From NCBI RefSeq assembly GCF_009931435.1, contig NZ_CP043414.1: DNA of 64,000 bases; one strand, given 5' to 3'. Both the position numbers and the translations under genes were made by a program. The stretch is from Escherichia coli (GTDB lineage: Bacteria > Pseudomonadota > Gammaproteobacteria > Enterobacterales > Enterobacteriaceae). Shown in pieces: positions 14,691-54,110 of the stretch. Each line of letters starts with the position of its first letter. Within the stretch, counting starts at the first letter, position 1. The notes beneath the pieces are model-generated. The model did not search any database. It saw only the letters and a list, made by a program, of their open reading frames with translations, and was not told the DNA's origin.

Positions 14691-14759
14691 AATGGTTCGT
14701 CTTTTAGCCGTTTTATTCAGTATAGATTTGCGGCGGAATCTAACAGAAAGCAAGCAAAG

Positions 14760-15001
14760 AAAAAAGGCGACAGATTACTCTGTCGCCTTTTTTCCTGACT
14801 CATAACCCTTAACGGGTCTTACAATCCCTGCAGGCCGCCAACACACCCTGTTTTTCCATTAGCCGGAACAATCCGTGTTGATTCCATTTCCGTTTAATTA
14901 CGTCTCCGGACGTTTGTCTTCCTGACAATCCTCTGTCTTCGCCTCCTGGCGCTCCTGACCCTCATCCTGAGTCATTGTTCCTGTTAGCGTCCTCGCTCTA
15001 T
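14760..15001 (-). ncRNA. csrC: CsrC small RNA (CsrA-sequestering)
   Basis: Minus-strand sequence begins ATAGAGCGAGGACGCTAACAGGAACAATGACTCAGGATGAGGG, has multiple GGA motifs, and ends with a GGCGACAGAGTAATCTGTCGCC hairpin plus U-run; 3' end approximate. Confidence 0.8.
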
Positions 15002-16254: not shown

Positions 16255-19041
16255 TTAGTGCGCCTGATCCCAGTTTTCGCCACTCCCCACTTCCACCAGC
16301 AGCGGCACATCCAGACGGGTACAGTTTTCCATCAGTTGATGAATCTGTTTCGCGACGGCATCGACATCATCTTTATGAACTTCAAATACCAGTTCATCGT
16401 GTACCTGCATAATCATACGCACACGCGGTTGCTCAGCTTGTAACCACGCATCAACGGCAATCATCGCTCGTTTGATAATGTCGGCGGCGGTTCCCTGCAT
16501 TGGCGCGTTAATGGCTGCACGTTCAGCCGCTGCACGACGAGCACCATTGCTGGATTTGATATCCGGCAGATACAGACGGCGTCCGTCCAGCGTTTCAACG
16601 TAGCCCTGTTCTTTCGCCTGCGCACGGGTGCGCTCCATATACTCCAGCACGCCTGGGTAGCGTTCGAAGTAAAGGTCCATGTACTTCTGCGCTTCTTTAC
16701 GTGGAATGTTCAATTGTCGCGCCAGACCGAAAGCACTCATGCCATAAATCAGACCAAAGTTGATCGCTTTCGCGCTACGACGTTGCTCGCTGGTGACGGT
16801 TTCCAGTGGCAAACCAAACACTTCTGCCGCCGTAGCCCGGTGGATATCTTTTCCTTCCGCGAATGCGGTCAGCAAGCCTTTGTCACGCGAGAGATGCGCC
16901 ATAATGCGCAGTTCAATCTGCGAGTAGTCCGCCGAGACAATCACATAATCCTCTGGCGCAATAAACGCCTGGCGGATACGACGACCTTCTTCGTTACGCA
17001 CCGGAATGTTTTGCAGGTTAGGATCGGTTGACGATAAACGTCCCGTAGCGGTTACTGCCTGGTGATAAGAGGTATGTACACGCCCGGTTTTCGGGTTGAT
17101 CATCAGCGGCAGCTTGTCGGTGTAGGTCGATTTCAGCTTCGCCAGACCACGATACTCCAGAATCACTTTTGGCAACGGATAGTCCAGCGCCAGTTCTTCC
17201 AGTACCTCTTCCGACGTTGACGGCGCACCACCCGGCGTTTTCTTCAGCGGTTTAATGCCCTGTTTTTCAAACAGAATGGTTTGTAACTGCTTGGTGGAAG
17301 AAAGGTTAAATTCTTCACCTGCAATTTCATGCGCTTTCTTTTCCAGCTCAGCCAGACGTAGAGTGAGCTCTTCAGAATGATTATGAAGCACTTTCGGATC
17401 GATCTTCACACCGTTACGTTCAATGCGTGAAAGCACCGGCACCAGCGGCATTTCGATGTTCTCGAAGACGTTCAACGGCCCTTTGTGTTTTTGCAGATCC
17501 GGCCACATTTTCAGATGCAACTGCAAGGTGACATCTGCATCTTCGGCGGCGTAACGTCCGGCCTCTTCGAGGGCAATCTGGTTAAAGGTCAGTTGATTTT
17601 TGCCTTTACCCGCAATCTCTTCAAAAGTGATGGTTTTGTGCTTCAACCAACGTTCCGCGAGGCTGTCCATATCGTGACGCCCGGCAACGCTATTGAGAAT
17701 GTAGGACTCCAGCATGGTATCAAACGCAATCCCACGCAGCTCAATGCCGTAGTTCGCCAGAATACCGCGATCGTATTTCAGGTTTTGCCCGACCTTCAGC
17801 GCCTTTTCATCTTCCAGCAGCGGTTTTAGCAACTCGAGTGCACGCTCGCGAGAGATTTGATCGGGCGCATCAAGATAATCATGAGCAACCGGAATATATG
17901 CCGCTACGCCTGGCTCGATAGCAAAAGAAAGCCCGACCAGGTTAGCAGAGATGTTATCAAGGCTGTCGGTTTCGGTATCAAATGCAAATACCGGCGATTT
18001 TTCCAGCTTCGCAATCCACGCTTTCAGTGTTTCTTCATCAAGGATGGTGACGTAGTTGTCATAAGAAATCACCGTTGCCGTCACTTCTGGCGCTTCGTCT
18101 GCAACACTGGTTTCCTGCGGCTTCGCGGCTGGTTTTGCCCCTTTGGCCTGTAACCATTTGCCCGCTTCGACATCAGCAGTCCAGCGTTTGAACTCATACT
18201 TTTTGAACAGCCCCAACAACTCTTCCGCCGCCGGTTGCTGCACTTCTAGTTGTTCACAGGTAAGCTCCAGTTCAACGTCGGTTTTAATCGTCGCCAGCTG
18301 GTAAGAGAGATAAGCCACTTCTTTGTTTTGCTCGAGCTTCGCCGCCATTGTTTTCGCGCCACGGAAGCTCAACCCAGCAATTTTTTCTGGCTCGGCATAC
18401 AGCGTATCCAGTCCGCCAAGACCTTGTAGCAATGCTTGCGCGGTTTTTTCACCGACGCCCGGTACGCCAGGGATGTTATCAGAGGAGTCACCCATCAGCG
18501 CCAGGAAGTCGATGATCAGTTCTGGCGGCACGCCGTACTTATTCACCACCTCTTCCGGTCCGAGGATGGTATTCGTCATGGTATTGATAAGCGTAATATT
18601 TGGCGTCACCAGCTGCGCCATATCTTTATCGCCTGTGCTTATCAGCACCGGACGCCCGGCTTTTTCGGCTTCGCGCGCCAGAGTACCGATAACGTCGTCC
18701 GCTTCTACGCCAGAAACCGCCAGCAGCGGCAGTCCCATCGCTTTAACCATCGCGTGCAGAGGTTCGATTTGTGCTCGCAGATCGTCCGGCATTGGCGGAC
18801 GATGTGATTTGTAATGTTCAAACAGTTCATCACGAAAGGTTTTTCCCTTGGCGTCAAAGACCACCGCTGCATGCGTCGGTTTATATTGCATGATTAGACT
18901 GCGCAGCATGTTGAGGACACCATACATCGCACCGGTCGGCTCGCCTGCGCTGTTAGTCAGCGGGGGAAACGCGTGATAGGCGCGATAAAGATAAGATGAA
19001 CCATCTACAAGGATAAGTGGATTTTGGGGGATCTGAACCAT
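16255..19041 (-). CDS. polA: DNA polymerase I
   Basis: 928 aa; 5'-3' exonuclease, 3'-5' exonuclease and polymerase domains recognisable. Confidence 0.98.
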
Positions 19042-19404
19042 AATGTCCGTGCCTGTTTATCAGATTATGGGTAAAGGATGCCACAGACAGGATGAAAACA
19101 TGAGTTTTTCACCGCTTTTCGTGAAAATCTTTTGTAGATCTTCTGGATCGCTCGCAAATCGTCATGTGGATAACTTTGTGCATAAATTATTTACATCGCT
19201 TTTAATTTATTATCATGCTTTTTACAGCATGATGTTTGTCTTTGCTTTTCATACAGTTAAATATAAAGCCATCCCTAATAATTGTGATAATGGGATTTTT
19301 TCTAATGTGGATAGATATGAATTATTTTTCTCCTTAAGGATCATCCGTTATTTGGGGCGTTTTCTGCTAAAATCGGCGCCTTGCGCTTCTTTAGCGCACT
19401 GTCT

Positions 19405-46860: not shown

Positions 46861-48288
46861 CTAGCGCGACTGCTGATTATATTCATCATCGCGTTGATAA
46901 GCTTCATCATTCGGCTGCTCCGGTACCGACCGCAGTCGATACTCTTCATCCTGGCTCACCGCTTGTTCAGCCAAATCCGGATTAATCTCGCGTTTAATTT
47001 CTACTCCTAAACCGCGAAACGCTTCTGCTTGCGCCAGCACATTTCCGCGACCTGAAGAGAGTTTTTTCATTGCCTGACGATAGTTGTCCTGTGCTTTGTC
47101 CAGACTTTGACCAATCGCGGACATATCATCGACAAACAAGCGCATTTTGTCGTACAACTTGCTGGCACGATCGGCTATTTTCTGAGCGTTGCGGCTTTGA
47201 TGCTCATAGCGCCAGAGGTTGGCGATAGTGCGCAGCGCCACCAGCAGCGTGGTCGGGCTAACCAGCATGATATTGTTTTTCAACGCTTCGGTGATCAGCT
47301 CCGGCTGGCGGTCAAGCGCCAGTAAAAAAGCGGGTTCAACGGGAATAAACATCAGCACGTAATCCAGGGTTCGCAGCCCCGGCAGCTGTTGATAATCTTT
47401 GCGTCCCAGCAAACGGATATGGTTACGCACCGACGCGATATGTTCCTGTAGCGCGCTTTCGCGGGTGTAGTCGTCTTCTGCGTTGAAATAGCGTTCATAG
47501 GCGACCAGTGTCATTTTTGCGTCGATCACCACATCTTTTCCCTGCGGCAACCGCACGATGACATCCGGCTGCATCCGCGAGCGGGCGTCATTTTCGATGC
47601 TGACCTGGGTTTCATATTCATACCCTTCACGCAGACCGGAAGCCTCCAGCACACGCGTCAATACTACCTCGCCCCAGTTGCCCTGGGTTTTATTGTCGCC
47701 TTTCAGCGCACGCGTCAGGTTGATCGCTTCCTGGGCCATTTGCGCGTTGAGCTGCTGGAGATTGCGTATTTCGTGAGTCAGGGTATGGCGTTCTTGTGCT
47801 TCTTTACCGAAACTGTCCTGAACCTGACGACGAAAACCGTCCAGTTGTTCACGTAGTGGCGACAACAGGCTGTTCAGACTCTGACGGTTTTGCTCATCAA
47901 CCCGGCGATTGCTGTGCTCGAAAATACGGTTGGCGAGGTTTTCAAACTGCTCACTGAGGCGCTGTTCGCTGTTGATCATTTGGCGAATTTTATCGTCAGC
48001 ATGTTGCTGTACGGCCTCCATTCGCGTGGTGACTTCACGCAGATCCGCCTCCAGCGAGGTGTTAATGCTTTGCAGACTGCGCACTTCATTATTGAGTAAC
48101 TCGCACTCAGCACGCCAATGTTCGCTTTGGGTAATTTGTTGTTTTGCCGCACTTAACTCCGCGACCATCTCTTCACGTTCAGCGAATTGCTCGGCTTTTT
48201 GCTGCGCATGCTGATAACTGGCAATCAGCCAGCCAATCGCCACGCTCACCAACGCAATAACTGCGTAAACCATGATTGAGATATCCAC
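46861..48288 (-). CDS. rmuC: DNA recombination protein RmuC
   Basis: Start assigned to GTG at 48288 (VDISIMVYAVIAL, preceded by ggagg RBS) giving 475 aa; the ORF-track ATG at 48381 adds 31 aa. Confidence 0.88.
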   Translation of the reverse strand: MDISIMVYAVIALVSVAIGWLIASYQHAQQKAEQFAEREEMVAELSAAKQQITQSEHWRAECELLNNEVRSLQSINTSLEADLREVTTRMEAVQQHADDKIRQMINSEQRLSEQFENLANRIFEHSNRRVDEQNRQSLNSLLSPLREQLDGFRRQVQDSFGKEAQERHTLTHEIRNLQQLNAQMAQEAINLTRALKGDNKTQGNWGEVVLTRVLEASGLREGYEYETQVSIENDARSRMQPDVIVRLPQGKDVVIDAKMTLVAYERYFNAEDDYTRESALQEHIASVRNHIRLLGRKDYQQLPGLRTLDYVLMFIPVEPAFLLALDRQPELITEALKNNIMLVSPTTLLVALRTIANLWRYEHQSRNAQKIADRASKLYDKMRLFVDDMSAIGQSLDKAQDNYRQAMKKLSSGRGNVLAQAEAFRGLGVEIKREINPDLAEQAVSQDEEYRLRSVPEQPNDEAYQRDDEYNQQSR

Positions 48289-48404
48289 AACGCCTCCAGC
48301 CTCATTACTTACCCGCACAAAATAGAATTGTGCTGTACAAACGTCCAGTTTGAAAGAAGTTTCCTGCGAGGCGCTACGCAAAACGATCCTTAATTTTTAT
48401 TATT

Positions 48405-48444
48405 TTATCCCACAATATGAGACCTAGTTTATATTGTGGGATAA
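48405..48444. promoter_or_regulatory. perfect 14-bp inverted repeat, candidate operator
   Basis: ttatcccacaatat-N12-atattgtgggataa, 60-100 bp upstream of the IclR-family gene and about 120 bp upstream of divergent rmuC; no flanking U-run on either strand. Confidence 0.45.
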
Positions 48445-48503
48445 ATCACCTTTTCCCCACGTCATTATGTGGAACACTTCAGCAATATCATCAGGAGAAA
48501 CGT

Positions 48504-49271
48504 ATGGCAGATACCTCTTCAACCACCGCTGGCGCACAAACGTTATTACGCGGGCTCGCGGTTCTTAATGCTGTTTATAACGGCTGCCATGACCTGAAAA
48601 GTATCGGCGAGTTCACCGGCACGACCCGGAGCACAACCCATCGTTTAGTCACCGTTCTGGTGGAACAACGCTACCTGCGCCACGTCCCAACGCAGGGCTA
48701 CCAACTGGGCGCCAAACTGATCGAATTCGGTGCCAGAGCGCTGGAAAGCACCTCGCTGTACGAAGTTGCGCTGCCCGTTTTGCAACGCCTTGCCCGTTAC
48801 ACCCTGGACACCGTGCATCTGGGGATCGTTGAAGGCGACGAAGTGCTGTATCTGGAGAAGATCAACAGCCAGCGCGGGCTGGAAATGCGCTCACGCCCAG
48901 GCCATCGCATGCCACTGGCAATCACCGGCATCGGCAAGGCATTGATCCTCAACCGAACAGAAGAAGAGTGGCGCACGCTGTTTAAGACCTGTGGTGATGA
49001 AACAAAACTGGGCGCATTTATTCAGAACATGCGTCGTTATGCCGCGAGTGGTTTTGCTTTTGATCTGGAAGAGAACGAGCCGACTATCCGTTGCGTTGCA
49101 GCGCCGGTTTACAACGCCCGGGATGAAATTGTGGCGGCTATTTCTGTCGCCAGTACCACTACGTATATGTCACTGGCGCGTCTGGAAGAACTGGCACCTT
49201 ACGTCAAATCCTGTGCAGAAGAGATATCCGCTGAACTGGGCTGGGGTAAGCACGTCCGCAAAAATAAATAA
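48504..49271 (+). CDS. IclR-family transcriptional regulator
   Basis: Start chosen at MADTSSTTAGAQTLLRGLAVLNAV (aggag RBS); N-terminal wHTH plus C-terminal effector-domain pattern typical of IclR regulators. Confidence 0.8.
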   Translation: MADTSSTTAGAQTLLRGLAVLNAVYNGCHDLKSIGEFTGTTRSTTHRLVTVLVEQRYLRHVPTQGYQLGAKLIEFGARALESTSLYEVALPVLQRLARYTLDTVHLGIVEGDEVLYLEKINSQRGLEMRSRPGHRMPLAITGIGKALILNRTEEEWRTLFKTCGDETKLGAFIQNMRRYAASGFAFDLEENEPTIRCVAAPVYNARDEIVAAISVASTTTYMSLARLEELAPYVKSCAEEISAELGWGKHVRKNK

Positions 49272-49294
49272 ACCATGACTAAAGGAAACGGCTA

Positions 49295-50299
49295 ATGTCG
49301 GGAAACACCTCATTTATTGCCCTGGACTGGGGAACGTCATCGCTTCGGGCATGGCGTTTTGGCGATTCACCAAATCCACAAGAAAAACGTGAATTCCCGT
49401 GGGGGATCATGAAATTACCCTCCCAGGCAGCAACACGTGAGGACGCTTTCCACGATACGTTTTTACGTGTCTGCGGCGACTGGCTGGCACAATCCCCATG
49501 CCCGGTTCTGGCTTGCGGCATGATCGGCAGTGCGCAAGGGTGGCAACCCGCAGCTTATTTACCTTGCCCGGTCACTCTCGAGGGTCTGGCAAAGCAGTTG
49601 ACGCCTGTTATCCACCAGCAGCAGACAATGCTGCATATTATTCCTGGCGTGATTAAAGAAGGTGAAATGCCCGAAGTAATGCGTGGTGAAGAGACACAAA
49701 TCTTCGGTGCTATCTCGATGGAACCGGCCCTGCAAAACGCGATCCGCCAGGGTATGCCTGTGCTGATTGGCTTACCTGGCACACATGCGAAATGGGCGGT
49801 AGTTGAAAACAACACCATTACCGATTTCCGAACCTTTATGACTGGCGAGTTATTTGATGTTTTATCCCGCCATTCGATTCTCGGTGCCACCATGCGTTCG
49901 GGAGATGAACCGCACTGGGATGCCTTCACCCATGGGCTGACAGCAGCACAAGAGCATCATCAGACCGGATTATTATCGACGCTGTTTTCGACCCGTTCGC
50001 GCCTGCTGACCAGTAATCTTACGCCGTCCTCACAGGGGGATTACCTTTCAGGATTACTGATAGGCCATGAATTATGCGGTCTGGCATCCAGTTTGCTACG
50101 TGATTTACCCGCCACAACACCGATCGCCTTAATCGGTAGCGCCACTCTGAACAGCCGCTATTCACAAGCATTCAGCCACGTTTTTCCCGACAGACAGCTA
50201 CACGCCATTCCTAATGCCACTGAACAGGGGTTATGGCGAATCGCCCACGTTGCCGGGCTACTCTCCACCAACGCCAGGGAATGTACCCATGCCATTTAA
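49295..50299 (+). CDS. 2-dehydro-3-deoxygalactonokinase-like sugar-acid kinase (DgoK family)
   Basis: 334 aa; N-terminal IALDWGTSSLRAW and VMRGEETQIFGA / TGELFD..LS.HS.LGA / LSGLLIG motifs align with E. coli DgoK as I recall it. Confidence 0.8.
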   Translation: MSGNTSFIALDWGTSSLRAWRFGDSPNPQEKREFPWGIMKLPSQAATREDAFHDTFLRVCGDWLAQSPCPVLACGMIGSAQGWQPAAYLPCPVTLEGLAKQLTPVIHQQQTMLHIIPGVIKEGEMPEVMRGEETQIFGAISMEPALQNAIRQGMPVLIGLPGTHAKWAVVENNTITDFRTFMTGELFDVLSRHSILGATMRSGDEPHWDAFTHGLTAAQEHHQTGLLSTLFSTRSRLLTSNLTPSSQGDYLSGLLIGHELCGLASSLLRDLPATTPIALIGSATLNSRYSQAFSHVFPDRQLHAIPNATEQGLWRIAHVAGLLSTNARECTHAI

Positions 50300-50918
50300 T
50301 ACGCTTTTGCAAAAAACCGGGTTAGTCGCCATTTTACGCGGCGTGAAACCGGATGAGATTGTCGCCATCGGTGAAAAGCTGTATGCCGCTGGATTTCGCC
50401 TGATTGAGATTCCCATGAACTCGCCGGAGCCGTTGCAAAGTATCAGTTTACTGCGCGACGCCCTGCCTAAGGACTGCCTGGTCGGAGCCGGAACGGTGCT
50501 TTCGGTGGAGCAAGTCGTCGCGGTTAAAGAGGCTGGAGGCCAGATTATCGTGATGCCGCATTGCGATACTGCGGTGATCCGTCGTGCCCGTGCGCTGGGT
50601 ATGTATTGTGCGCCTGGCGTCGCTACGCCCACCGAAGCTTTTGCTGCCATTGAACATGGCGCCAATGCCATCAAGCTGTTCCCGGCTGAACAAATTACGC
50701 CTGAAGTCACCAAAGCCTGGCGTGCGGTTATTCCACAATCCGTTCCGATGTTACCGGTTGGCGGTATCACTCCAGACACAATGGCGCGTTATCTGAGCCA
50801 CGGCGCAAACGGCTTTGGCCTCGGTTCTGCGCTATATCGCCCCGGCATGACGCCAGAGCAAGTCTATGAAAATGCAGTACTGTTTATGAACGCATGGAAC
50901 AATTTAAATAGCAAATAA
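50289..50918 (+). CDS. 2-dehydro-3-deoxy-6-phosphogalactonate (KDPGal/KDPG) aldolase-like
   Basis: Start at MPFNTLLQKTGLVAILRG (209 aa), overlapping the kinase gene by 11 bp; AILRG...EIP.NSP...GAGTVL...GG(I/V)TP motifs of the Eda/DgoA family. Confidence 0.8.
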   Translation: MPFNTLLQKTGLVAILRGVKPDEIVAIGEKLYAAGFRLIEIPMNSPEPLQSISLLRDALPKDCLVGAGTVLSVEQVVAVKEAGGQIIVMPHCDTAVIRRARALGMYCAPGVATPTEAFAAIEHGANAIKLFPAEQITPEVTKAWRAVIPQSVPMLPVGGITPDTMARYLSHGANGFGLGSALYRPGMTPEQVYENAVLFMNAWNNLNSK

Positions 50919-50942
50919 CTGATAAATAAGGATATAAAAGCA

Positions 50943-51917
50943 ATGATAAAACATCTTACCTTACCGAAAAAAATGGCTGCAATGGTACTTCTTGCCGGCG
51001 CTGCCCTCAGCACTGCGCCTGTACAGGCGGCCTCCTGGCCAACCAAACAAATCGAGTTAGTCGTACCCTACGCGGCCGGAGGCGGTACGGACCTGGTTGC
51101 CCGAGCCTTTGCTGATGCCGCCAAAAACCATTTACCCGTCAGCATCGGGGTTATCAATAAACCTGGCGGTGGCGGCGCTATCGGCCTGAGTGAAATCGCC
51201 GCTGCCCGCCCTAACGGTTACAAAATGGGTTTAGGCACGGTTGAACTGACCACCCTTCCCAGCCTCGGAATGGTGCGTTTTAAAACCAGCGACTTTAAAC
51301 CCATTGCCCGTCTGAATGCGGATCCGGCGGCTATCACCGTCCGTGCCGATGCGCCGTGGAATAGCTATGAAGAATTTATGACTTACGCCAAAGCGAATCC
51401 CGGAAAAGTACGCATTGGTAACTCAGGCACCGGAGCAATCTGGCATCTGGCGGCAGCTGCACTGGAAGACAAAACGGGCGTGAAGTTTTCTCATGTCCCG
51501 TATGACGGCGCAGCCCCTGCCATTACAGGCCTGTTAGGCGGGCATATTGAAGCGGTTTCCGTAAGCCCAGGTGAAGTTATCAATCATGTGAAAGGCGGCA
51601 AGCTGAAGACACTGGTAGTGATGGCGGATGAACGTATGAAAACCATGCCTGACGTCCCGACGTTAAAAGAGAAAGGCGTTGATCTCTCCATCGGCACCTG
51701 GCGCGGCCTGATTGTGTCGCAAAAAACGCCGCAGGATGTGGTGGATGTGCTGGCAAAGGCAGCAAAAGAGACGGCTGAAGAGCCTGCATTCCAGGATGCA
51801 CTGCAAAAGTTGAATCTCAACTATGCATGGCTTGATGGTGCCAGCTTCCAGACCCAAATCAACGAGCAGGAAAAGTACTTTGACGAGCTTCTGACTCGCC
51901 TGGGCCTGAAAAAATAA
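50943..51917 (+). CDS. tctC: tripartite tricarboxylate transporter, periplasmic substrate-binding protein (TctC/Bug family)
   Basis: 324 aa; signal peptide then ASWPTKQIELVVPYAAGGGTDLVAR, typical Bug-family N-terminus. Confidence 0.8.
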   Translation: MIKHLTLPKKMAAMVLLAGAALSTAPVQAASWPTKQIELVVPYAAGGGTDLVARAFADAAKNHLPVSIGVINKPGGGGAIGLSEIAAARPNGYKMGLGTVELTTLPSLGMVRFKTSDFKPIARLNADPAAITVRADAPWNSYEEFMTYAKANPGKVRIGNSGTGAIWHLAAAALEDKTGVKFSHVPYDGAAPAITGLLGGHIEAVSVSPGEVINHVKGGKLKTLVVMADERMKTMPDVPTLKEKGVDLSIGTWRGLIVSQKTPQDVVDVLAKAAKETAEEPAFQDALQKLNLNYAWLDGASFQTQINEQEKYFDELLTRLGLKK

Positions 51918-51933
51918 TCCCGAGGTACGGTCG

Positions 51934-52440
51934 ATGAACACAAAACAGTCTGTTGCTCAACTCGCCGTACCGCACCGCAAGCGCCTTTCATCCACTGTGG
52001 TGGTGGCGCTGTTACTTTGTGTGGTTGCTGGCGCGGTGATAATTAATGCCGCTGATTTTCCAGCAACTGCCATTGAAACGGATCCCGGTGCAAGTGCCTT
52101 CCCTACTTTCTATGCCTGCGCTCTGATTGTGCTCGCTGTCTTACTGGTGATACGCGATCTTTTGCTGGCAAAACCAGTCCCTTGCGCCAACGCACAGGAA
52201 AAACCGGCATTAAGGAAAACGGCAACAGGAATTGCGGCAACCGCGTTTTATATTGTGGCGATGAGCTACTGCGGTTATCTCGTTACTACTCCTGTTTTCC
52301 TCATCGTCATTATGACGTTGATGGGCTACAGGCGATGGGTACTCACTCCGGGTATTGCGCTGCTGTTAACGGCAATCCTCTGGTTGCTGTTTGTCGAAGC
52401 GTTACAGGTGCCATTGCCTGTCGGCACATTTTTCGAATAA
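51934..52440 (+). CDS. tctB: tripartite tricarboxylate transporter small membrane subunit (TctB-like)
   Basis: 168-aa 4-TM protein between tctC-like and tctA-like genes. Confidence 0.7.
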   Translation: MNTKQSVAQLAVPHRKRLSSTVVVALLLCVVAGAVIINAADFPATAIETDPGASAFPTFYACALIVLAVLLVIRDLLLAKPVPCANAQEKPALRKTATGIAATAFYIVAMSYCGYLVTTPVFLIVIMTLMGYRRWVLTPGIALLLTAILWLLFVEALQVPLPVGTFFE

Positions 52441-52452
52441 CAGGGGCCTGCA

Positions 52453-53943
52453 ATGTTTGAAAGTGAACTTTTAACTCAGGGGTTTTCGACATTACTCAGT
52501 AATCCTCAGGCGCTGCTGTTTGCCACGTTTGGAGTGATGCTGGGTATTATGATTGGCGCTCTGCCTGGCCTGACAGCGACCATGGGTGTGGCGATTTTGC
52601 TGCCTTTCACCTACGGCATGGAGCCTGTTTCTGGCTTGTTGATGATTTGCGGTGTCTTTTTTGGTGGTGTGTATGGTGGTTCTATCACCGCAATTTTGCT
52701 CAAAATTCCCGGTACACCTGCCGCCGCTGCCACCGCCATTGACGGTTATGAGTTAACGAAGCAGGGAAAAGCCGGGCTGGCATTAAGTGCCGCCACGTTC
52801 TCTTCTTTTAGCGGTGGAACGCTCAGCATTATCGTATTGATGTTTCTCTCTCCGGTCCTTGCTAGTTGGGCGTTGAAATTTAGTGCCTCGGAGTCCTTCG
52901 CCCTGGCAACCTTCGGACTGAGCATTATTGCCAGTATTTCCGGTGAGTCGCTGATTAAAGGGCTGATCGCCGGGATTGGCGGATTAATGATCGCAACGAT
53001 AGGCCTCGATCCGATGGGCGGTTTTCCACGCTTTACGGGCGGGTTTGTGGAACTGATGAATGTGCCATTTATCCCGGTGATGATTGGTCTGTTTGCTGCT
53101 TCAGAAGCGTTCCGTTCTATGGAACAAAATCAGCATATTCGTCAGAGCGCGAACGTGGCTATCGGCAGTCTGTTACTGCCCTGGCAAACGCTACGCCGCA
53201 TCGCATTAACCATTTTGCGCTCATCAGGATTAGGGGTTTTTATCGGCATGATCCCCGGTGCGGGGGCAGATATTGCAGCTTTTGTTGCCTATAACGAAAC
53301 TCGTCGTTTCAGTAAGACGCCTGAAAACTTTGGTAAGGGTGAGATTAAGGCGGTGGCCTCCTGTGAGGCAGGCGCGAATGGCTGCACCGGTGGCGCATTG
53401 TTACCTATGCTGACGTTGGGGATCCCAGGCGATGCGGTAACTGCCATCATGCTGGGCGCGTTAACGTTACAAGGGATGCAGCCAGGCCCACTGATGTTTA
53501 CCGACCACGGCGATATGGTTTATACGTTATTTGTCGGCATGATCTTCTGTTACTTCATGCTGCTAGTTCTTGGACTGCTCTCTTTGAAAGTCATCGGTAA
53601 CGTGGTGAAAATTCCCGGCAATATTCTCACACCGATGATCCTCGCACTTTGTGTGGTCGGGACTTATGCGTTGAACAATAGCCTGTTTGATGTTGGCATT
53701 ATGCTGATTGCAGGCGTGGTGGGCTATTTCATGCAAAAAGGGGGATATCCGGCATCACCCGTAGTGCTGGCATTGATTATGGGGCCAATGGCGGAAAGTA
53801 ATTTTCGCCGTGCGCTGTCGCTTTCAGGGGGGTCACTCGACTTCCTGTATACCCGACCGATAACCCTGGCATTGCTGACACTGGCAGCCTTTACGCTACT
53901 GACGCCAATAATACGCAAAATTATGCGCTTACGGCGTCAGTAA
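52453..53943 (+). CDS. tctA: tripartite tricarboxylate transporter large permease subunit (TctA-like)
   Basis: 496-aa polytopic membrane protein with duplicated GxPGxxA / IPGxPA-type motifs. Confidence 0.85.
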   Translation: MFESELLTQGFSTLLSNPQALLFATFGVMLGIMIGALPGLTATMGVAILLPFTYGMEPVSGLLMICGVFFGGVYGGSITAILLKIPGTPAAAATAIDGYELTKQGKAGLALSAATFSSFSGGTLSIIVLMFLSPVLASWALKFSASESFALATFGLSIIASISGESLIKGLIAGIGGLMIATIGLDPMGGFPRFTGGFVELMNVPFIPVMIGLFAASEAFRSMEQNQHIRQSANVAIGSLLLPWQTLRRIALTILRSSGLGVFIGMIPGAGADIAAFVAYNETRRFSKTPENFGKGEIKAVASCEAGANGCTGGALLPMLTLGIPGDAVTAIMLGALTLQGMQPGPLMFTDHGDMVYTLFVGMIFCYFMLLVLGLLSLKVIGNVVKIPGNILTPMILALCVVGTYALNNSLFDVGIMLIAGVVGYFMQKGGYPASPVVLALIMGPMAESNFRRALSLSGGSLDFLYTRPITLALLTLAAFTLLTPIIRKIMRLRRQ

Positions 53944-53964: not shown

Positions 53965-54110
53965 GGGGAGTATGAGACTGATGACAAACGCTAAATTGCC
54001 TGATGCGCTGCGCTTATCAGGCCTACCACAGAAATGCAATATATTGAATTTGCATGCTTTTGTAGGCCGGATAAGGCGATCACGCCGCATCCGGTATGAA
54101 CAAAGGACAC
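53965..54110. repeat. REP/BIME elements at the island 1 / udp junction
   Basis: gcctgatgcgctgcgcttatcaggcctac and gtaggccggataaggcgatcacgccgcatccggtatg units. Confidence 0.65.

What the first reader, a model, noticed from the sequence alone, without database searches (positions are those of the whole stretch)
48405..48444. Perfect 14-bp inverted repeat upstream of the IclR-family gene
ttatcccacaatat-N12-atattgtgggataa is an exact palindrome in the divergent rmuC / IclR-gene intergenic region. It is not followed by a U-run on either strand, so it is more likely a dimeric regulator operator than a terminator, and is a candidate autoregulatory site for the island 1 regulator.
Basis: seen in the sequence. 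Interest (0 to 1): 0.4.

Follow-up and report, generated by a model that had tools for sequence, protein, structure and literature searches.

The report
Two-box operator of an IclR regulator
The perfect palindrome is real and is most likely the binding site (two adjacent boxes, probably bound by a tetramer) of the neighbouring IclR-family regulator that controls a sugar-acid uptake and breakdown operon found in about a quarter of E. coli strains: an ordinary, previously undescribed example of a well-known kind of switch.

Summary
The inverted repeat exists and is one base longer per arm than reported: 48404-48418 / 48431-48445, 15 nt, 100% complementary, 12-nt spacer. It lies 20 bp inside the variable iclR-dgoK-dgoA-tctCBA segment.

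Orthologous regulators in 80+ loci are always linked to dgoK-dgoA and carry the same upstream architecture. There are two roughly 17-bp boxes (ATCCCAnATATnGGGAT-like) in inverted orientation, 19-20 bp centre to centre. The Escherichia palindrome is the outer two-thirds of box 1 (48407-48423) and box 2 (48426-48442).

A matrix trained only on beta-proteobacterial sites ranks these boxes 1st and 5th of about 128,000 window positions. Both match the published IclR-family consensus WTTYCRYW3RYGRAAW at 14/17. The spacing fits the family's tandem-site (tetramer) rule.

Box 2 overlaps a CRP-like site (48435-48450) that is conserved in other enterics at class-II distance from a -10-like element. This suggests repression by competition with CRP and RNA polymerase.

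It is not a terminator, RNA or mobile-element repeat. Verdict: operator reading supported, "dimeric" refined to two boxes. It is a new member of a known kind, of modest interest. Binding, sign of regulation, effector and transcription start are untested.

The parts
48404..48445 (.). Perfect inverted repeat (15-nt arms, 12-nt spacer); the whole 42-bp composite operator
   Evidence: only two perfect IRs >=14 nt with spacer <=30 nt in the window
48407..48423 (+). Box 1, ATCCCACAATATGAGAC (outer half ATCCCAC strong, inner half ATGAGAC weaker)
   Evidence: Top hit of ~128,000 positions for a matrix built only from beta-proteobacterial sites (10.58 bits). 14/17 to the published IclR-family consensus. 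Homologous boxes in all enteric orthologous loci.
48426..48442 (-). Box 2, AGTTTATATTGTGGGAT on the + strand; an inverted copy of box 1 with centres 19 bp apart
   Evidence: Rank 5 of ~128,000 (8.54 bits). Pair score 19.1 against next best 7.6, reached by 0 of 200 Markov-1 simulations. 14/17 to the family consensus.
48423..48426 (.). Inter-box gap, hypervariable among Escherichia lineages (CCTA / CGTA / TGGA / TGAA / CTGA / CAGA) while the boxes stay constant
48435..48450 (.). CRP-like site TGTGG-GATAAA-TCACC overlapping box 2 by 8 bp (inferred)
   Evidence: 8/10 core match. TGTGc/a-N6-TCAcc/ta is present at the same place in L085, Phytobacter, two Klebsiella, Pseudocitrobacter and Citrobacter; Brenneria has only a weaker TGCGG-N6-TCACA seen by eye, which the TGTG scan did not call. 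Not significant alone: 22 such matches in the window.
48459..48475 (+). Possible third box ACGTCATTATGTGGAAC, 33 bp from the box 2 centre, overlapping the putative -10 (tentative; Escherichia coli only)
   Evidence: Rank 6 of ~128,000 (8.22 bits). 14/17 to the family consensus. Not recovered in E1V33 or other genera.
48470..48478 (+). Putative extended -10 element TGgAACACT. It would place the transcription start near 48484-48485 and the CRP-like site near -41.5/-42.5 (inferred)
   Evidence: Read from the sequence. In five of the other enteric loci checked by hand (L085, Phytobacter, K. spallanzanii, Pseudocitrobacter, Citrobacter) a -10-like hexamer lies 22-28 nt after the CRP-like site, preceded by TG in three of them; K. 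huaxiensis has a weaker CAGAGT at 22-27. My reading. The promoter scan did not call it.
48504..49271 (+). IclR-family regulator gene (255 aa), first gene of the cluster
   Evidence: Recognition-helix residues S43 T44 H46 R47 L48 are invariant across 16 orthologues and paralogues.
49295..50299 (+). 2-dehydro-3-deoxygalactonokinase (DgoK-like) gene
   Evidence: RefSeq annotation of near-identical locus L001; PF05035 DGOK in orthologous loci
50289..50918 (+). 2-dehydro-3-deoxy-6-phosphogalactonate aldolase (DgoA-like) gene
   Evidence: NF006600 322.9 bits against cut-off 207
50943..53943 (+). tctC-tctB-tctA tripartite tricarboxylate-type transporter genes (50943-51917, 51934-52440, 52453-53943)
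48274..48383 (-). rmuC upstream region shared with genomes lacking the cluster; the homology break is at 48383/48384

Best explanation
The palindrome is the Escherichia form of a conserved composite operator for the adjacent IclR-family regulator. That regulator is an uncharacterised orthologous group always linked to dgoK-dgoA.

The operator consists of two ~17-bp boxes in inverted orientation: box 1 at 48407-48423 and box 2 at 48426-48442, with centres 19 bp apart and therefore on the same face of the helix. Each box is most likely bound by one dimer of a tetramer. The perfect 15-nt arms are the well-conserved outer halves plus the AT-rich centres of the two boxes.

The regulator gene is first in the iclR-dgoK-dgoA-tctCBA cluster, so the site would control both the regulator itself and the uptake and catabolic genes.

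Inferred, not shown:
- The protein is a repressor.
- Box 2 overlaps a CRP site (48435-48450) positioned as a class II activator site for a promoter with an extended -10 at 48470-48478.
- Bound repressor therefore excludes CRP and RNA polymerase. A possible third box at 48459-48475 may add to this.
- A sugar-acid inducer releases it. 2-keto-3-deoxygalactonate or a related compound is the obvious guess.
For: 1. Location. The repeat is 20 bp inside the variable segment and 59 bp upstream of the regulator's ATG. It is absent from island-less genomes.

2. Synteny. In all 80 loci recovered with the regulator family, the regulator is adjacent to dgoK and, where the held DNA reaches far enough, dgoA. 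They are on the same strand, or divergent in Achromobacter and Collimonas.

3. Phylogenetic footprint. Burkholderia, Paraburkholderia, Caballeronia, Trinickia, Achromobacter, Collimonas and eight enteric loci all carry TCCCAwTATnTGAnn, a 4-5 bp gap and an inverted second copy upstream of the regulator or dgo genes, although the flanks are unalignable.

4. Independent prediction. A matrix built from 75 unique beta-proteobacterial 17-mers ranks window boxes 1 and 2 as no. 1 and no. 5 of ~128,000 positions. The pair score is 19.1 against a next best of 7.6, reached by 0 of 200 Markov simulations. The same matrix places the top hit of every 6-12 kb enteric locus in the regulator's upstream region.

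5. Family rules from the literature. The group-1 consensus is WTTYCRYW3RYGRAAW, and tandem sites 18-22 nt apart occur in 94 orthologous groups, interpreted as tetramer binding (PMC8222616). Only 36 of 63,984 window positions match >=14/17, and three of them are 48407, 48426 and 48459.

6. Within Escherichia, substitutions pile up in the 4-nt inter-box gap and in the N6 of the CRP-like site, while the boxes stay constant.

7. The recognition helix (RSTTHRL) is invariant across the orthologues.

8. A CRP-like site plus a -10-like hexamer 22-28 nt downstream is conserved in the enteric loci checked.
Against: - There are no binding, expression or transcription-start data.
- As a single site, box 1 barely beats a chance hit (10.58 against 10.54 bits at 19057).
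- One simulated sequence reached a pair score of 18.8.
- The Burkholderiaceae training sites are phylogenetically related, so they are not 75 independent observations.
- The inner half of box 2 is weak in all enterics.
- The sign of regulation is open. In Burkholderiaceae box 2 overlaps a -35-like TTGGAG, a position compatible with repression or with class-II-type activation.
- The CRP core match is common by chance: 22 in the window.
- The promoter scan called no plus-strand promoter.
- Box 3 is not conserved outside E. coli.
Confidence: 0.75

Rival explanations
1. A single dimer operator exactly: two 14-15-bp half-sites separated by 12 bp, each contacted by one monomer.
For: The repeat is perfect over 15 nt per arm. 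The outer halves are the best conserved parts.
Against: Half-site centres would be 27 bp apart, which a helix-turn-helix dimer cannot span (established knowledge). In other genera each box is a self-contained palindrome: TTCCCACATATTGGGAT in Phytobacter, ATCCCATATATAGGGAT in Klebsiella. The inner-half positions T12 G13 A14 are nearly invariant in 75 beta-proteobacterial sites. A 19-20 bp box spacing is the documented tandem arrangement of the family.
Confidence: 0.07
2. The same two-box site, but the regulator is an activator (or dual regulator) rather than a repressor.
For: Some IclR-family members, such as PobR, PcaU and MhpR, are activators that bind upstream of -35 (own knowledge). Boxes 1-2 lie upstream of the putative core promoter. 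In Burkholderiaceae box 2 abuts a -35-like hexamer 18 bp before TACAAT.
Against: In Escherichia box 2 overlaps the CRP-like site by 8 bp, so both proteins could not bind together. A possible third box covers the -10. Sugar-acid IclR regulators such as KdgR and YiaJ, which are among the nearest named models, are repressors (own knowledge).
Confidence: 0.15
3. An RNA or DNA hairpin: a terminator, attenuator or processing site acting on a transcript that crosses the region.
For: As RNA it folds to -22.1 kcal/mol, z = -7.1 against shuffles.
Against: Any perfect repeat gives that energy. There is no adjoining U-run and no terminator call. It lies upstream of the inferred start and between divergent genes. 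Rfam gives only sub-threshold miRNA-hairpin noise. The long-range pairing is not kept in L085, Klebsiella or Phytobacter, where instead each box is kept. Arm changes in SE15 and SCPM are uncompensated.
Confidence: 0.02
4. A repeat-element or integration remnant (REP/MITE-like sequence, island end) or an rmuC-linked element.
For: It sits only 20 bp from the homology break with island-less genomes. REP-like sequences do occur at the other end of the segment.
Against: It occurs as one copy per genome, only in the 1456 genomes with the IclR gene. No similar sequence occurs elsewhere in the window or at the udp-proximal end. It is absent upstream of rmuC in K-12. It is present in Brenneria and Citrobacter, where the operon is not next to rmuC.
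Confidence: 0.01

Closest known systems
Tandem palindromic operators of IclR-family regulators (group 1 motif WTTYCRYW3RYGRAAW; Suvorova & Gelfand 2021, PMC8222616)
   Same: 17-bp AT-centred palindromic boxes. Two boxes with centres 19-20 bp apart. Located upstream of the regulator's own gene and its catabolic operon. 14/17 match of each window box.
   Different: The box core is TCCCA...TGGGA rather than TTYC...GRAA. The exact sites were not found in the stored parts of that paper's supplementary tables (the files are truncated). In Escherichia the two boxes are mirror images strong enough to make a perfect 15-nt repeat.
TtgV tetramer on its extended operator (Lu et al. 2010, cited in PMC8222616; operator length of about 40 bp is from my own memory, the paper was not available)
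   Same: An IclR-family tetramer is thought to cover about four helical turns. Here the composite site is 42 bp.
   Different: TtgV regulates an efflux pump, and its operator repeats are dissimilar to each other. No sequence relation was tested.
KdgR and IclR/AllR operators of E. coli
   Same: Repressors of sugar-acid or glyoxylate operons from the same family. KdgR is the second-best named model for this protein.
   Different: The protein scores far below every equivalog cut-off: KdgR 127 against 275, IclR 91 against 380, AllR 74.5 against 406. The box sequence differs from the KdgR and IclR boxes (own knowledge).
GntR-type DgoR operator of the E. coli K-12 dgoRKADT operon
   Same: It controls DgoK/DgoA-type enzymes of the same pathway step.
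   Different: The regulator family is different (GntR against IclR) and the locus is different. The cluster here has no dehydratase or MFS transporter but has a TTT transporter.
IclR-family regulator clustered with dgoK and a TTT transporter in Salinivirga fredricksonii HL-109 (PMC5507952)
   Same: The same gene association (IclR + dgoK + TTT transporter), predicted there to take up D-galactonate.
   Different: That prediction was made in an alphaproteobacterium. No site sequence was compared, and orthology was not tested here.

Membership tests
IclR-family tandem (tetramer-type) operator | Lies in the upstream region of an IclR-family regulator gene or its target operon | tested here: met
   59 bp upstream of the ATG at 48504. 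The protein has HTH_IclR + IclR_C domains.
IclR-family tandem (tetramer-type) operator | Each box matches the family consensus WTTYCRYW3RYGRAAW | tested here: met
   14/17 for 48407, 48426 and 48459. Only 36 of 63,984 positions reach 14. The deviation is symmetric: TCC/GGA in place of TTC/GAA.
IclR-family tandem (tetramer-type) operator | Two palindromic boxes with centres 18-22 bp apart | tested here: met
   19 bp in Escherichia and L085. 20 bp in the other enterics checked and in Burkholderiaceae and Achromobacter.
IclR-family tandem (tetramer-type) operator | Motif conserved upstream of orthologous regulators in distant genomes (phylogenetic footprint) | tested here: met
IclR-family tandem (tetramer-type) operator | Direct, effector-sensitive binding by the regulator; tetramer stoichiometry | not testable with these tools
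   Needs EMSA or footprinting and SEC-MALS or native mass spectrometry.
Class II CRP-dependent promoter | Match to TGTGA-N6-TCACA | tested here: inconclusive
   8/10 at 48435-48450, but 22 equally good matches occur in the window. It is positionally conserved in six other enteric loci, with a weaker version in Brenneria.
Class II CRP-dependent promoter | Site centred near -41.5 from the transcription start | not testable with these tools
   The start is unknown. It is inferred to be about 48484-48485 from TGgAACACT at 48470-48478.
Intrinsic terminator | G+C-rich stem followed directly by a U-run | tested here: not met
   The stem is A+T-rich. No terminator was called at the repeat on either strand.
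REP/BIME or MITE-type repeat | Many copies per genome | tested here: not met
   One place per genome in 1456 genomes and none in the others. No further copy in the window.
Known named IclR regulators (KdgR, IclR, AllR, BhcR, PcaR) | Protein reaches the curated equivalog score | tested here: not met
   Best is BhcR at 141.6 against a cut-off of 350; KdgR 127.1 against 275.

The most novel reading that the evidence does not exclude
In Escherichia a 9-bp deletion, relative to the arrangement kept in Klebsiella, Phytobacter, Pseudocitrobacter and L085, fused the regulator's second box with the CRP site, and an A->G change created the TGTG half-site. One 23-bp stretch now serves as both repressor box and activator site. 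This would make repressor and CRP binding strictly mutually exclusive, and it produced the unusually perfect 42-bp palindrome. The switch would gate a TTT-transporter-dependent route for a 2-keto-3-deoxy-sugar acid. That would be the first sugar-acid TTT system in E. coli, and many of the E. coli genomes listed with it belong to extra-intestinal pathogenic lineages.
Probability: 0.3. Interest if true: 0.45.

Novelty: new member of a known kind. Interest (0 to 1): 0.3.

Why it matters
It gives a concrete, testable regulatory model for an uncharacterised accessory operon carried by 27% of complete E. coli genomes, including APEC O1, NC101 and ST131. The model names the operator boxes, a probable CRP site and a probable promoter.

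It also defines the DNA motif (ATCCCAnATATnGGGAT, tandem, 19-20 bp apart) of a whole orthologous group of IclR-type dgo regulators spread across Enterobacterales and Burkholderiales. That motif can be used to annotate their regulons or to build a sugar-acid biosensor.

It does not reveal a new principle.

Tried and rejected
- Terminator or RNA reading: rejected. The pairing is not conserved outside Escherichia and arm changes are uncompensated.
- rmuC-linked or REP-like element: rejected.
- DnaA box (TTATNCACA): by eye, the arm TTATCCCACA has an extra C and does not fit.
- Looked for the palindrome at the other end of the segment and for flanking direct repeats: none found. Only REP-like sequences occur near udp.
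- Searched the literature for an experimental description of this regulator, operon or an IclR-type DgoR: nothing specific found. The closest is a comparative-genomics note on IclR + dgoK + TTT clusters.
- Searched the supplementary tables of PMC8222616 for the exact site sequences: only an unrelated Rhodococcus regulator with a similar motif was found. The stored files are truncated.
- Lu et al. 2010 (TtgV) could not be opened.
- The paralogous regulators downstream of tctA (P0011, P0012) and a Pseudomonas homologue (P0065) lack the motif and the dgo context, and were set aside.
- HS-02 carries a degraded copy full of indels that is not informative.

Full report
**Observation**

The window carries a perfect inverted repeat with arms at 48404-48418 (TTTATCCCACAATAT) and 48431-48445 (ATATTGTGGGATAAA) and 12 nt between them. 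An exhaustive count finds only two places in the 64 kb with a perfect repeat of >=14 nt and a spacer of <=30 nt. The other is a terminator-like hairpin near 14759. My own calculation of the uniform-composition expectation is about 0.007. No terminator-like site is called on the repeat on either strand.

**Context**

The window is Escherichia DNA. Its gene order is rfaH, tatDCBA, ubiB, ubiJ, ubiE and rmuC (minus strand), then an IclR-family regulator (48504-49271), a DgoK-like kinase, a DgoA-like aldolase and tctC-tctB-tctA (all plus strand, gaps of -11 to 24 bp), then udp.

The nearest complete genomes are 98.5-99.1% identical over the intergenic region. The six-gene segment is present in 1456 of 5426 complete E. 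coli genomes, once each. These include APEC O1, NC101, SE15 and ST131 strains.

In genomes without the segment, such as K-12, homology with the window stops at 48383 and is followed by the udp terminator. The palindrome therefore lies 20 bp inside the variable segment and is not an rmuC-associated element.

The same rmuC | iclR-dgoK-dgoA-tctCBA arrangement occurs in Klebsiella spallanzanii, K. huaxiensis, Pseudocitrobacter and an unnamed enteric contig. In Klebsiella (and in Phytobacter, where no rmuC match was found upstream) udp follows the operon. The 'island' looks like an old enterobacterial locus that is variably lost.

**What the regulator is**

The protein has HTH_IclR and IclR_C domains. 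It scores far below the curated cut-offs of BhcR, KdgR, PcaR/PcaU, IclR and AllR. Its nearest solved relatives are distant. It therefore belongs to an uncharacterised group.

A family-wide search and a scan of one genome per species recovered 80 loci. In every one the regulator is adjacent to dgoK and, where the held DNA reaches far enough, dgoA. They are on the same strand in Enterobacteriaceae and Burkholderiaceae, and divergent in Achromobacter and Collimonas. The recognition helix (RSTTHRL; S43, T44, H46, R47, L48) is invariant across 16 aligned members. A shared DNA specificity is therefore expected.

**Phylogenetic footprint**

Upstream of these genes, in flanks that are otherwise unalignable, the same architecture recurs.
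- The first element is a box TCCCAwTATnTGAnn.
- A 4-5 bp gap follows.
- The second element is an inverted copy of the box (nTCAcATATTGGAG in Burkholderiaceae).
- In Burkholderiaceae a TACAAT -10 lies about 18 bp further on, so box 2 overlaps a -35-like TTGGAG.

In the enteric loci the first box is an almost perfect 17-bp palindrome:
- L085: ATCCCACATATAGGGAT
- Phytobacter: TTCCCACATATTGGGAT
- K. spallanzanii: ATCCCATATATAGGGAT
- Brenneria: ATCCCTATATATGGGAC

In these loci other than Brenneria (where no second box scored above threshold) it is followed 19-20 bp later by a weaker second box such as AGTTTATATTATGGGAT.

In the window, box 1 is ATCCCACAATATGAGAC (48407-48423) and box 2 is AGTTTATATTGTGGGAT (48426-48442). 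They happen to be exact mirror images in this lineage.

**Independent tests**

A weight matrix built only from 75 unique beta-proteobacterial 17-mers, with no enteric sequence, gave these ranks among about 128,000 window positions:

| Site | Coordinates | Rank |
|---|---|---|
| Box 1 | 48407-48423 | 1st |
| Box 2 | 48426-48442 | 5th |
| Third site | 48459-48475 | 6th |

Scored as an inverted pair 18-22 bp apart, the site reaches 19.1 bits against 7.6 for the next best. None of 200 first-order Markov simulations reached that score: mean maximum 8.1, highest 18.8. The same matrix puts the top hit of each 6-12 kb enteric locus in the regulator's upstream region.

The published consensus for the largest class of IclR-family sites is WTTYCRYW3RYGRAAW. 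The published rule for the family is that tandem sites lie 18-22 nt centre to centre, interpreted as tetramers with both dimers on one face of the helix (PMC8222616). This is independent of my data. Only 36 of 63,984 window positions match that consensus at >=14/17, and three of them are 48407, 48426 and 48459.

Among seven Escherichia sequences, substitutions concentrate in the 4-nt inter-box gap (CCTA, CGTA, TGGA, TGAA, CTGA, CAGA) and just outside box 2. The boxes themselves are nearly constant.

**Why not a hairpin or a repeat element**

The RNA fold energy of -22.1 kcal/mol is what any perfect repeat gives. Several results argue against a hairpin:
- Rfam returns only sub-threshold miRNA-hairpin noise.
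- The long-range pairing is not preserved in other genera, where instead each box is preserved.
- The two arm substitutions seen in E. coli (SE15 C->T, SCPM A->T) are uncompensated.

Against a repeat element, the sequence is single-copy and has no counterpart at the udp end of the segment.

**Mechanism (inferred)**

Box 2 overlaps TGTGG-GATAAA-TCACC (48435-48450), an 8/10 match to the CRP core. Alone this is not significant, since the window holds 22 equally good matches.

However, a TGTGc/a-N6-TCAcc/ta element sits at the same place relative to the start codon in L085, Phytobacter, two Klebsiella species, Pseudocitrobacter and Citrobacter. Brenneria has only a weaker TGCGG-N6-TCACA, seen by eye and not called by the TGTG scan. 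In the loci I checked by hand (all of these except Brenneria) a -10-like hexamer lies 22-28 nt after it, preceded by TG in L085, Phytobacter and Citrobacter (my reading). In the window this element is TGgAACACT at 48470-48478.

That geometry puts the CRP-like site near -41.5/-42.5 of a start near 48484-48485, which is the class II arrangement (established knowledge).

In the other enterics the CRP-like site follows box 2 directly. Compared with L085, Escherichia lacks 9 bp (TTGTGCATT), so that GGGAT is joined to ATATCACC. An A->G change in box 2 supplies the TGTG.

On this reading, the regulator bound at boxes 1-2, and perhaps at the E. coli-specific third box over the -10, excludes CRP and RNA polymerase until an inducer releases it. 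Because the regulator gene is first in the cluster, the site would be autoregulatory and would also control the kinase, aldolase and transporter genes.

The sign of regulation, the effector, the transcription start and CRP dependence are all untested. An activator role is the main open alternative.

**Comparison with what is known, and novelty**

The element behaves as a standard IclR-family tandem operator and meets every feature of that class that could be tested here. The regulator is not KdgR, IclR, AllR, BhcR or PcaR. I found no paper describing it, its operon or its site. The nearest is a comparative-genomics remark on IclR + dgoK + TTT-transporter clusters (PMC5507952).

It is a new member of a known kind. 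It is useful for annotating an accessory operon seen in many pathogenic E. coli lineages, and for defining the motif of a widespread regulator group, but it is not surprising. Interest 0.3.

Noticed in passing
window 48384-53943 and loci L008, L085, L089, L090: The 'island' iclR-dgoK-dgoA-tctCBA sits next to rmuC not only in 27% of E. coli but also in Klebsiella spallanzanii, K. huaxiensis, Pseudocitrobacter and an unnamed enteric. udp follows it in Klebsiella and Phytobacter. It looks like an old locus that is variably lost rather than a recent insertion. The cluster has kinase and aldolase but no dehydratase, which suggests direct uptake of a 2-keto-3-deoxy sugar acid through the TTT transporter.
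   Followed up: partly
window 53990-54110: REP/BIME-like palindromic units (GCCTGATGCGCTGCGCTTATCAGGCCTAC ... GTAGGCCGGATAAGGCG...CGCCGCATCCGG) lie between tctA and udp. They are present in the window and its nearest relatives but absent in SE15 and DA61218, where tctA and udp are only 35 bp apart. The udp terminator also differs from that of K-12.
   Followed up: partly
L005 8400-8700 (Escherichia sp. E1V33): This cryptic-clade Escherichia keeps iclR-dgoK-dgoA and the operator but has lost tctCBA. No tct match was found, and udp lies about 350 bp after dgoA.
   Followed up: partly
L009 311-6741; L086, L087, L088: Citrobacter amalonaticus has a second, paralogous IclR gene (62% identical) directly downstream of tctA. 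A regulator of the same type sits directly after tctCBA in Serratia odorifera and in the P0012-bearing contigs. Its upstream region lacks the TCCCA...TGGGA boxes.
   Followed up: partly
window 48464-48491, minus strand: This is the only promoter-like match called in the intergenic region (ATGATA-16-CATAAT, 9/12). It points towards rmuC and overlaps the possible third box. About 0.8 such matches are expected by chance in that stretch.
   Followed up: no
window 19057-19073, minus strand: A lone matrix hit TACCCATAATCTGATAA (10.54 bits, second best in the window) lies just upstream of a 928-aa minus-strand ORF (16255-19041). It has no partner box and is probably chance.
   Followed up: partly
window 14759-14795: This is the only other perfect inverted repeat of >=14 nt with a short spacer in the window (GAAAAAAGGCGACAGA...). 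It has a terminator-like appearance.
   Followed up: no
L093 (E. coli HS-02) 2477-2640: A degraded copy of the operator region with several indels, no annotated IclR gene and a truncated udp. It is either a decaying remnant of the locus or an assembly of low accuracy.
   Followed up: partly
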